64,000 nt of DNA from contig NC_058376.1 of NCBI RefSeq assembly GCF_018350175.1, positions 82,894,001 to 82,958,000 of the forward strand, in the 5' to 3' direction. The translations under genes were made by a program, and so were the position numbers. Below are positions 18,901 to 21,252 of this stretch, piece after piece. The DNA is from Felis catus. Lineage: Eukaryota. Each line of letters begins with the position of its first letter. The stretch's first letter is position 1. Below the pieces are notes generated by a model. The model saw nothing but the letters and a program-made list of their open reading frames with translations. It ran no database searches and had not been told where the DNA came from.

Positions 18901-21252
18901 TGTTCCTAGCCTCTGTTCCCTCTAGACAGCATCTGTTGTTGGAGTTGGCCCTTGCACATTCCGAATACTGTAAATATGTATTTGCTGGCTCAGTCTGGTT
19001 ATAGAGGCTTGATATCTGCTCCTTACCCTCAGTCTTCTCCCAGGCTGGTTTATCCTTTTTCCAGCAGTTTTAAGGGTGGACCCCTTCCCAGAGCTTAGTG
19101 GCAGGGGAGGGGAGGAGTTGCTATGTGTGTGTGGGTGGGATACATGGCCTTGGAGCTGATCTCCACCCTTTCTCTCCCTTCCCTACCCTAGCCTGGCAGT
19201 CTCTGTGAAGATGAACGTGCTACTCTTCGCCCCTGGGTTACTATTTCTTCTCCTCATGCAATTTGGCTTCCGTGGAGCCCTCCCCAAGCTGGGCATCTGT
19301 GCTGTCCTTCAGGTACCCCTTCCACCCCTCCCCCTTTCTAATGAAGAGGGGGCCATTCTCTGGCCTTCTTCCATCGTTGAGACTTCCTCAGAGCTAACAG
19401 ACAGGGTTTTGGAGTTGATTTTGGACTAGGCAACCGTTACTTCTGGGCTTTACTTTTATTAGCTATAAAATAAGGGTGTTGAACTATATGGTTTCTGAGG
19501 GTCTCTCTCATTCTGCCCATTTATGACTTGGTGAATCTAAACTTAAAGCACTGTTATTACCTGCCTTCTCAGCTTCTTTGGCCCAGACTCTGGTCTCGAT
19601 GAGGAGGCTGGCTTTCCTGCTATTCCTGGTGGGAATTTGAGAACCTCTGAGACCTACACCCTCTGTCCACTCCCCTTGGTGATTAGCATGAAGGCTGGAC
19701 TTGAGCCTGGGCAGCTCTGCTGACATCACACATATCCTCAGGTTGTGCTGGGCCTGCCCTTCCTTCTGGAGAACCCCATTGGCTACGTGTCCCGTTCCTT
19801 TGACCTTGGCCGCCAGTTTCTCTTCCGCTGGACAGTAAACTGGCGCTTCCTGCCTGAGGCCCTCTTCTTGCATCGTGCCTTCCACCTGGCATTGTTGGCC
19901 GCCCACCTCACCCTGCTCTTGCTCTTTGCCCTTTGCAAGTGGCACAGGTGAGAAAGGGGAGCAGTGTCACGGGTCAAGTTGGGGCAAGGAGTATAGGGCC
20001 TGCTTGGGGGAGACGTGAAGTTCATGGGGGGTGAATCTAGAGTTTGGCCTAGGATGGAGGCTTGATAAATGTTTGAATGGCTTCTCCCCAGGACGGGGGA
20101 AAGTATCCTGTCGCTGTTGAAGGATCCCTCCAAAAGGAAGGTTCCACCACAGCCCCTCACACCCAATCATATCCTTTAAATCATGGGAAGGTAAGTCTTG
20201 CCCTCTCCAGGTACAGTTGGGGTCCTGGTCTGTTAGCCTGGTGCCTGGTGACCTGGGGGGGGGGGGGGGGGGAGATGCCAGTAATAGCTGCAGGCCCTGT
20301 TCATGGAGGAGAGCACTTTACGTATTTAAGTGTATTTTATTCTTAATCTTAAATATTATTTGATTTACCATTATGAGTACTCACTCTGCCTGGTGTGCTA
20401 AGAGATTTACATACATTCTAACATGTAAAGCTCACAAGAGACTCTGAAATAGGGAGGGTTTTGTTTGTTTATTTGTTTTATTCTCATTTTAGAGATGACA
20501 AAATCAGGGCATTGAGGAGTTTAGGTAATTTACCTAGGTCACACAGCTTGTAAGTGATGGATTTAAACTCCCTGGGCCTTATGGCCCCAGTATTACTGTC
20601 TCCACATTAGATTGAGGAACAGGTCTGGAGAAGGTAAAAAATTCGTCCAGAAGTATGCATCTCGGAATGGCAGAGCCAGGGGGCTATCTGACCCCAAAAC
20701 CTTTGCCCCTTTGCTTTGGAACCTCCCTCTCCCCTCCTCCCCTTCCCCCCCCATCCCAATTCCTGCCCCTTCTGCTCCTGCCCTTGGCCTTGACCACTGC
20801 ANNNNNNNNNNNNNNNNNNNNNNNNNNNNNNNNNNNNNNNNNNNNNNNNNNNNNNNNNNNNNNNNNNNNNNNNNNNNNNNNNNNNNNNNNNNNNNNNNNN
20901 NNNNNNNNNNNNNNNNNNNNNNNNNNNNNNNGCTTACACATCTGCTCAGGTACTGGCTGGGACACCCTGGGCGAGTGGGAAGGGCTAGGGAGCTCCTCGT
21001 CGCAAGGCTGACTGTGGAGGGTTGGGAGCGAGCTACGGGGCTGCAGGTCTAGAAACTGGGCAAAACCTGAGCTTTTTTCTCCTCTCCAGGTTGCTGGTGC
21101 TGGGCCTCATTGAGCTCTCCTGGAACACATACCCCTCTACATCCTGCAGCTCTGCCGCCCTGCATATATGCCATGCTGTCATCCTGCTGCAGCTCTGGCT
21201 GGGCCCCCAGCCGTTCCCCAGGAGCATCCAGCACAGCAAGAAAGCCCACTGA
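15985..21252 (+). CDS. ALG3: Dol-P-Man:Man5GlcNAc2-PP-Dol alpha-1,3-mannosyltransferase
   Basis: Exons: 15985-~16180 (end in gap), 18120-18219, 18305-18452, 18560-18720, 19192-19312, 19742-19947, 20092-20168, ~20803-20949 (start in gap), 21090-21252. Peptides [75 protein letters not shown]...HSKKAH (ER-retrieval KKXX) match ALG3. Confidence 0.97.
16680..17800 (-). mobile_element. L2 fragments with an embedded MIR in ALG3 intron 1
   Basis: ttaattcagcacatatttattgaatgtttattac (L2 3' end), gggttttaagcagagagatctaacatgat, tgatggtgccattcatggaac. Confidence 0.6.
17815..18032 (-). mobile_element. Feliform CAN-SINE (ALG3 intron 1, ending 87 nt before exon 2)
   Basis: caggctccaggctctgagctgtcagcacagagccc...ctgagccacccaggcgcccc. 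Confidence 0.92.
20169..20802 (+). other. U12-type (minor spliceosome) AT-AC intron, ALG3 intron 7
   Basis: 5' end ATATCCTTT at 20169 directly after ...CCCAATC. U12 branch-like CCTTGAC at 20788-20794, then CACTGCA running into the gap; the terminal C of AC is inferred at 20802. Confidence 0.9.
20370..20600 (-). mobile_element. MIR inside the ALG3 U12 intron
   Basis: ctcattttagagatgacaaaatcaggg...aatttacctaggtcacacagcttgtaagtgatggatttaaactcc. Confidence 0.65.

What the first reader, a model, noticed from the sequence alone, without database searches (positions are those of the whole stretch)
20169..20216. Perfect U2 donor and stop codon nested at the start of the ALG3 U12 intron (twintron-like poison switch)
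Seen: AAG|GTAAGT, a full U1 consensus, at 20191, only 22 nt inside the minor intron. The extension reads CAT ATC CTT TAA, an in-frame stop at 20177-20179. A second element CCCTCTCCAG|GTACAG (acceptor immediately followed by GT) lies at 20201-20216. The next exon is expected to start with AG (...CAC|AG), which would supply a U2 acceptor 2 nt inside exon 8. Established: U2-within-U12 twintrons and cryptic U2 activation under minor spliceosome stress exist. Inference: major versus minor spliceosome competition sends ALG3 mRNA to NMD or to protein, making glycosylation capacity a sensor of minor spliceosome activity.
Basis: partly seen in the sequence, partly recalled or inferred. Interest (0 to 1): 0.7.

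Follow-up and report, generated by a model that had tools for sequence, protein, structure and literature searches.

The report
Strong latent splice site in ALG3
The glycosylation gene ALG3 has a rare minor-class intron with a textbook major-class splice donor 22 bases inside it; this is likely a latent site used mainly when minor splicing fails, as is common in such introns, rather than a dedicated regulatory switch.

Summary
ALG3 intron 7 is a 636-nt AT-AC U12 intron (20169-20804). It has AAG|GTAAGT at +23, an in-frame TAA at 20177-79, and an AG opening exon 8. The U12 intron is catalogued in human and mouse. The +23 donor is unusually strong: 40 of 5,483 background windows and 0 of 13 other putative U12 introns match it, though about 5 of ~720 minor introns would by chance. 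Human supplements flag an unplaced alternative donor in this intron after CENATAC or ZRSR2 loss, and downstream-exon skipping after U6atac block. Such flags are common (13 of the 25 most retained rows; 28). The stop adds little, because the usable junctions frameshift and retention hits it too. Joined to exon 9, the stop lies 11 nt from the last junction and should escape NMD (55). Four related glycosyltransferase U12 introns lack the layout. Use of +23 and its conservation were not shown. Verdict: likely an opportunistic cryptic U2 donor; a selected switch is about 15%. The scan noted a similar layout in an ESRP gene.

The parts
20092..20168 (+). ALG3 exon 7 (77 nt), ends in phase 1 (AAT C|)
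20169..20177 (+). U12-type AT donor ATATCCTTT of intron 7 (intron 20169-20804, 636 nt)
   Evidence: sequence; orthologous intron catalogued in human and mouse
20177..20179 (+). In-frame TAA on read-through; its T is +9 of the U12 consensus; also present in human (ATATCCTTTAAATTG)
20188..20198 (+). Nested U2-type donor AAG|GTAAGTCT (GT at 20191, +23); best GT site in exon 7 plus intron 7 and stronger than the six real ALG3 U2 donors I could place; also holds a second in-frame TAA (20192-20194)
   Evidence: use not shown
20201..20216 (+). CCCTCTCCAG|GTACAG: ordinary-strength second GT (+43); its AG is only 20 nt past the +23 donor, too close to pair with it
20255..20272 (+). G18 run at +87 to +104, a possible hnRNP H/F site (role recalled, untested)
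20789..20804 (+). U12 branch site CCTTGAC and AC 3' end
   Evidence: human GGCCTTGAC branch and CATAC end
20805..20949 (+). ALG3 exon 8 (145 nt); its first two bases AG complete a possible U2 acceptor (TACAG|), pyrimidine fraction 0.64, within the range of ALG3's real acceptors
21090..21253 (+). Coding part of exon 9 (last exon), ends ...KKAH stop; its U2 acceptor is the other likely partner of the +23 donor
   Evidence: exon 8 skipping category

Best explanation
ALG3 intron 7 is a minor (AT-AC) intron with a consensus major-class donor 22 nt inside it, which is likely a latent site that U11/U12 binding normally outcompetes and that is likely used mainly when minor splicing stalls. Shown by sequence: U12 splicing gives full-length ALG3, and any read-through stops at TPNHIL*, losing the last 102 residues. 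Inferred: when the minor spliceosome is limiting, most of the defect is retention; a share is cut by U1/U2 at +23 and joined either to exon 8 +2 (predicted NMD target) or to exon 9 (predicted NMD escape, truncated protein). Inferred: this is the generic failure mode of AT-AC introns rather than an ALG3-specific selected switch, because retention already gives the same loss of protein.
For: Anatomy and outcomes. Human ALG3 intron flagged 'AD up within intron' in 3 of 3 datasets of de Wolf 2021 (CENATAC patients, CENATAC-depleted HeLa, ZRSR2-mutant MDS) together with raised retention: 0.08 to 0.26, 0.12 to 0.45 and 0.14 to 0.36. ALG3 'CAT4' (downstream exon skipped) rises with a U6atac morpholino only (category defined). 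The response is generic: AD in 13 of the 25 most retained A-type rows seen; 92% of A-type introns show retention and/or major-site activation. ALG3 is absent from the main text of the 18-twintron paper and of Chang 2007. Cologne Table S1 lists only retention for ALG3. About 5 of ~720 minor introns should carry such a site by chance. 0 of 4 related glycosyltransferase introns share it.
Against: The site is stronger than 'cryptic' usually implies: score 9 against 6.5-8.5 for ALG3's real donors, 0 of 13 other putative U12 introns reach 9, per-intron chance under 1%. Intron bases +1 to +13 are identical in human, four beyond the consensus, which may hint at constraint. The human AD has no coordinate in the rows I saw and could be another site or a by-product of retention in Whippet (inference from recalled behaviour of that tool). 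No junction read from any species was seen at +23.
Confidence: 0.58

Rival explanations
1. Selected twintron-like switch: U1 and U11 compete in normal cells and the U2 route sends ALG3 mRNA to NMD, or to a truncated protein, tying N-glycan precursor synthesis to minor spliceosome activity.
For: Donor strength and rarity. TAA and exon 8 AG conserved in human. ALG3 mRNA falls (log2 -0.55 at 24 h, -1.38 at 48 h) on CENATAC depletion. ALG3, ALG6, ALG8 and ALG12 all carry minor introns.
Against: The stop is redundant with frameshift and retention, and the mRNA fall is equally explained by retention. ALG3 expression is not lower in Roifman patients (9-18 vs 5-7). No ALG3 switch row in Cologne Table S1 although 69 switches were found in LCL. 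0 of 4 related glycosyltransferase U12 introns have a donor above 6.5 within 60 nt. Aberrant minor-intron transcripts were mostly NMD-insensitive in mouse. Exon 8's AG encodes Gln, so its conservation needs no splicing role.
Confidence: 0.15
2. Inert, lineage-restricted chance motif: never spliced; the human alternative-donor flags refer to another site or are side effects of retention or misalignment.
For: Chance expectation of 1-5 such introns per genome. This junction is alignment-ambiguous (A|A and C|C), and one pipeline scored 'cryptic 5' and 3' sites' at MSI ~1 in every tissue and control, which is best read as an artefact. The human sequence seen ends at +15.
Against: A near-perfect U1 site with two workable acceptors is unlikely to stay silent once U11/U12 fails (describe the general rule). 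CAT4 skipping under U6atac block is most simply explained by a U2 donor in or near this intron (inference).
Confidence: 0.22
3. Non-splicing modulator: U1 bound at +20 to +30, with the G run downstream, tunes U11 loading on the AT donor, as at the Rous sarcoma virus NRS, without being cut.
For: Adjacent U11 and U1 sites plus G18; NRS precedent read in the review.
Against: No direct evidence; NRS sites overlap, these do not.
Confidence: 0.05

Closest known systems
Cryptic U2 donor activation around AT-AC introns on minor spliceosome loss (de Wolf 2021 PMC8280824; Younis 2013 PMC3728624, C11ORF10 and ZNF207; review PMC8329584)
   Same: U2 donor near or inside a U12 intron, seen with retention when CENATAC, ZRSR2 or U6atac is lost; human ALG3 itself is flagged AD.
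   Different: The site here is a full consensus, stronger than the gene's own donors; whether it is the flagged human site is not known.
SRSF10 and Drosophila prospero nested U2-in-U12 (AT-AC) switches (seen only through the review)
   Same: U2 sites nested in or beside an AT-AC intron; in SRSF10 the minor route makes the full protein and the major route a truncated RNA.
   Different: Those have shown isoforms, tissue or developmental regulation and enhancer elements. None was shown here. The proposed ALG3 U2 intron ends 2 nt past the U12 end, so it is interlocked rather than strictly nested.
CENATAC/CCDC84 intron 5 competing donors
   Same: Competing U12 and U2 donors, one route giving a premature stop.
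   Different: Polarity is reversed (there the U12 route is unproductive), both donors are shown conserved, both isoforms are abundant in controls, and the gene has an autoregulatory logic that ALG3 lacks.
The 18 vertebrate twintrons of Janice 2013 (PMC3564746)
   Same: Two intron types at one gene position.
   Different: Defined by transcript evidence for both forms; ALG3 does not occur in the main text or its Table 1.

Membership tests
U12-type AT-AC intron | RTATCCTT donor at the exon end | tested here: met
   ATATCCTTT at 20169
U12-type AT-AC intron | CCTTRAC branch site close to an AC end, and removal restores the frame | tested here: met
   CCTTGAC ending 9 nt before the intron's last base; full ALG3 frame to the stop; orthologue catalogued
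U2/U12 twintron or competing-spliceosome switch | U2 donor and a usable U2 acceptor at the same position as the U12 intron | tested here: met
   +23 donor, score 9; TACAG at exon 8 +2 with pyrimidine fraction 0.64; exon 9 acceptor 0.82
U2/U12 twintron or competing-spliceosome switch | Both spliced forms present in normal transcripts | tested here: inconclusive
   No reads could be laid in this species; human tables give an unplaced AD rising under disease or depletion; the 'all tissue' CAT6/CAT7 rows look like an alignment artefact
U2/U12 twintron or competing-spliceosome switch | U2 site conserved across vertebrates | not testable with these tools
   No vertebrate relatives held; metagenome scan gave 3 of 3 unrelated hits; human sequence seen ends at +15
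U2/U12 twintron or competing-spliceosome switch | Regulated ratio (tissue, stage, feedback) | not testable with these tools
   Nothing seen in the supplement rows read
Poison (AS-NMD) event | Stop more than 50-55 nt upstream of the last junction | tested here: inconclusive
   154 nt with the exon 8 +2 acceptor (met), 11 nt with exon 9 (not met); the acceptor used is unknown
Poison (AS-NMD) event | Isoform rises on NMD inhibition | not testable with these tools
   General counter-example in mouse U11 cKO
Recursive splice site (AG|GT), for the +43 element | Strong acceptor regenerating a strong donor within a long intron (definition recalled) | tested here: not met
   Pyrimidine fraction 0.55, the lowest of 7 acceptors scored; donor score 7; intron only 636 nt

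The most novel reading that the evidence does not exclude
A mammal-wide, selected U2 donor at +23 makes ALG3 a graded read-out of minor spliceosome activity, with the acceptor deciding the fate: exon 8 +2 destroys the mRNA, exon 9 yields an NMD-proof ALG3 lacking its last 102 residues, so U6atac levels would set the first lumenal mannosylation step of N-glycan assembly and minor-spliceosome diseases would carry a hidden ALG3-type glycosylation defect.
Probability: 0.12. Interest if true: 0.65.

Novelty: new member of a known kind. Interest (0 to 1): 0.3.

Why it matters
If only latent, it names the probable site behind an unplaced alternative-donor flag in human minor-spliceosome disease data, and warns that this junction is mis-scored by at least one pipeline: useful but modest. 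If conserved and regulated, it would add a metabolic enzyme to the short list of major/minor competition switches and give a testable link between minor spliceosome disorders and glycosylation (Man5GlcNAc2 build-up, recalled as the ALG3-CDG signature). Telling true switches from opportunistic cryptic sites is named as an open question in the review read.

Tried and rejected
Read-level test in this species: 24 runs were listed but none was laid, so their word shares (0.67-0.75 for 14 rows, mostly 'may be DNA') are not evidence; use of +23 stays open. Metagenome scan for other mammals' copies: 3 of 3 hits unrelated to ALG3. Protein search with exon 4 for isoforms ending at the intronic stop: 1 hit among 68 candidates, an unspliced read-through ORF, uninformative. 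Olthof 2019/2021 CAT6 and CAT7 rows for ALG3 (MSI ~1 in 11 of 11 mouse and 8 of 8 human tissues and in all controls, with retention MSI also 1) were rejected as support: 100% mis-splicing is incompatible with a working gene and the junction allows a 1-nt shift. The ATG at 20183 in good context opens a non-ALG3 frame after the U2 join: no re-initiation rescue. The +43 element as recursive site or partner acceptor was rejected. The intron 1 donor was dropped from the donor comparison because I could not place it surely; six were kept. Of 18 sense-strand RTATCCTY candidates in L005-L070, 9 were kept as putative U12 donors because the upstream frame looked coding (judged by eye), and 4 of 10 in the glycosyltransferase regions; none of the 15 dropped reached score 9 either. 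The background mixed strands and was redone gene-sense. The Arabidopsis ALG3 paper is unrelated. Madan 2015 is not held. No second ALG3 exon 7 copy was found in the genome.

Full report
1. Observation. The window reads exon 7 (20092-20168), then ATATCCTTTAAATCATGGGAAG|GTAAGT, with the GT at 20191, intron position +23. Read-through gives CAT ATC CTT TAA, a stop at 20177-20179. The second element CCCTCTCCAG|GTACAG is at 20201-20216. The own-genome locus L001 agrees with the window at every readable base and shows the 3' end as CCTTGACCACTGCATAC|AGATC. The intron is therefore a 636-nt AT-AC intron, 20169-20804, and exon 8 starts with AG as predicted. The U12 join gives an open ALG3 frame to ...KKAH*; exon 8 hits Pfam ALG3.

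2. The U12 intron is known. It is listed for human (596 nt) and mouse (519 nt) in supplement rows of Cologne 2019, Olthof 2019, de Wolf 2021 and Norppa 2024, and its U12 site overlaps a ZRSR2 binding site in PMC10853781 Table S4. The human donor is ACC|ATATCCTTTAAATTG and the acceptor ...CATAC|AGATCG, so the TAA and the exon 8 AG are shared with human. That listing ends at +15, short of the +23 site.

3. Is the nested donor more than chance? I scored 11 positions against the U1 complement, a crude proxy. The +23 site scores 9. The six real ALG3 U2 donors I could place score 6.5-8.5, and the next best GT in the intron 7.5. In gene-sense background, 40 of 5,483 windows of 56 nt reach 9 and 10 hold AG|GTAAGT. 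Of 13 other putative U12 donors in this genome (9 from DHHC, E2F and Na/H exchanger loci; 4 from PF03155 and PF03901 genes; chosen by eye), 0 reach 9 within 60 nt and 1 reaches 8.5.

4. The stop adds little. Its T is +9 of the U12 consensus; 39 of 271 TCCTTT hexamers are followed by a stop-making pair, and 945 of 3,717 random blocks have an in-frame stop in 7 codons (mixed strands). The +23 and +43 joins to exon 8 +2 add 20 and 40 nt and frameshift regardless. Plain retention meets the same stop. What matters is the acceptor: +23 to exon 8 +2 leaves the stop 154 nt before the last junction (NMD predicted by the 50-nt rule), while +23 to exon 9 leaves it 11 nt before (escape predicted, protein ending TPNHIL and lacking 102 residues).

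5. Evidence of use. None in this species: RNA runs were listed but no reads were laid, so use of +23 is open. In human, de Wolf 2021 flags 'AD' (alternative donor, Whippet, Pr > 0.9 and delta-PSI > 0.1) up within this intron in CENATAC patients, CENATAC-depleted HeLa and ZRSR2-mutant MDS. Retention rises 0.08 to 0.26, 0.12 to 0.45 and 0.14 to 0.36, and mRNA falls by log2 1.38 at 48 h of depletion. No coordinate is given in those rows. Olthof 2021 lists ALG3 CAT4, skipping of the downstream exon by reads from the intron and/or upstream exon, as affected by U6atac morpholino only; a U2 donor joined to exon 9 is the simplest reading (inference). Against: Cologne's Table S1 has only a retention row for ALG3 although 69 U12/U2 switches were found in LCL; ALG3 expression is not lower in Roifman patients. 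Olthof's CAT6/CAT7 rows at MSI ~1 in every sample, controls included, are best read as a 1-nt alignment shift at an ambiguous junction and were not counted.

6. The response is generic. AD is flagged in 13 of the first 25 of about 204 A-type rows, which are the most retained ones and so a biased sample; 92% of A-type introns show retention and/or major-site activation on CENATAC loss. Younis 2013 already treats minor introns themselves as U6atac-dependent switches through retention and decay, so a 'sensor' needs no nested donor. Most aberrant minor-intron transcripts tested in U11 cKO mouse brain did not respond to cycloheximide. The enrichment of minor introns in ALG3, ALG6, ALG8 and ALG12 is in print, but the four related glycosyltransferase introns checked here have best nested scores of 6.0, 6.0, 6.0 and 6.5 (gene names inferred from Pfam family and recalled motifs), so there is no pathway-wide design.

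7. Mechanism. Shown: layout, frames, stop positions. Inferred: U11/U12 normally wins; when it is limiting, retention dominates and some transcripts are cut at +23 and joined to exon 8 +2 or exon 9. I put this at 0.58, a selected switch at 0.15, an inert motif at 0.22 and a non-splicing U1 effect at 0.05. The donor's strength is the main fact that keeps the switch alive.

8. Comparison. It works like the cryptic U2 activation reviewed in PMC8329584 and resembles SRSF10, prospero and CENATAC in layout. Membership among twintrons is unproven: sites are present, but dual use in normal cells, conservation and regulation were inconclusive or untestable. ALG3 does not occur in the main text of Janice 2013 or Chang 2007. 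Searches for ALG3 with 'minor intron', 'U12', 'minor spliceosome', 'intron 7', 'intron retention' plus 'spliceosome', and variant or isoform terms listed no paper on a nested donor in ALG3; for only the top 40 of 127 and 20 of 815 were listed, and subscription journals and unread supplements are not covered.

9. What I saw of each paper. Passages only: PMC7507305, PMC6959997, PMC3564746, PMC1874599, PMC3728624. Passages plus all of section 7: PMC8329584. Passages plus supplement rows for ALG3: PMC6800510 (file 4 not searched, one of 3 hits in file 2 not shown), PMC6717393, PMC8034651, PMC8280824 (also part 1 of 22 of file 5; Appendix and review file unread). Supplement row only: PMC11039992, PMC10853781. 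Through the review only: Meinke 2020, Scamborova 2004. Not held: Madan 2015.

10. Verdict. A real and unusually clean nested donor in a known minor intron, most likely a latent site of a known kind. Interest 0.3; about 0.65 if conservation and regulated use were shown.

Noticed in passing
window 20103-20110: A U12-like GT donor (AAA|GTATCCTG) lies inside exon 7, 66 nt upstream of the AT donor; it could be a cryptic minor donor.
   Followed up: no
window 20255-20272: G18 run at +87 to +104 of the U12 intron; G runs are recalled as hnRNP H/F sites that aid U11 binding.
   Followed up: no
window 18721-18728: Intron 4 donor CAG|GTCACC is far from consensus at +3 to +6.
   Followed up: no
window 20168/20805 junction: The junction can shift by 1 nt either way (A|A, C|C), which likely explains why one published pipeline scores ALG3 as ~100% mis-spliced in all human and mouse samples.
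   Followed up: partly
L039:2929-2990 (G000:C46): An E2F-family putative AT-AC intron has TAT|GTATGTAT at +41 (score 8.5), the next strongest nested donor among 13 controls.
   Followed up: no
window 19947 and 20853/20854: Joining the exon 6 donor to the AG at 20853 inside exon 8 would remove 126 nt in frame, a U2-only bypass of the minor intron that keeps the natural stop.
   Followed up: no
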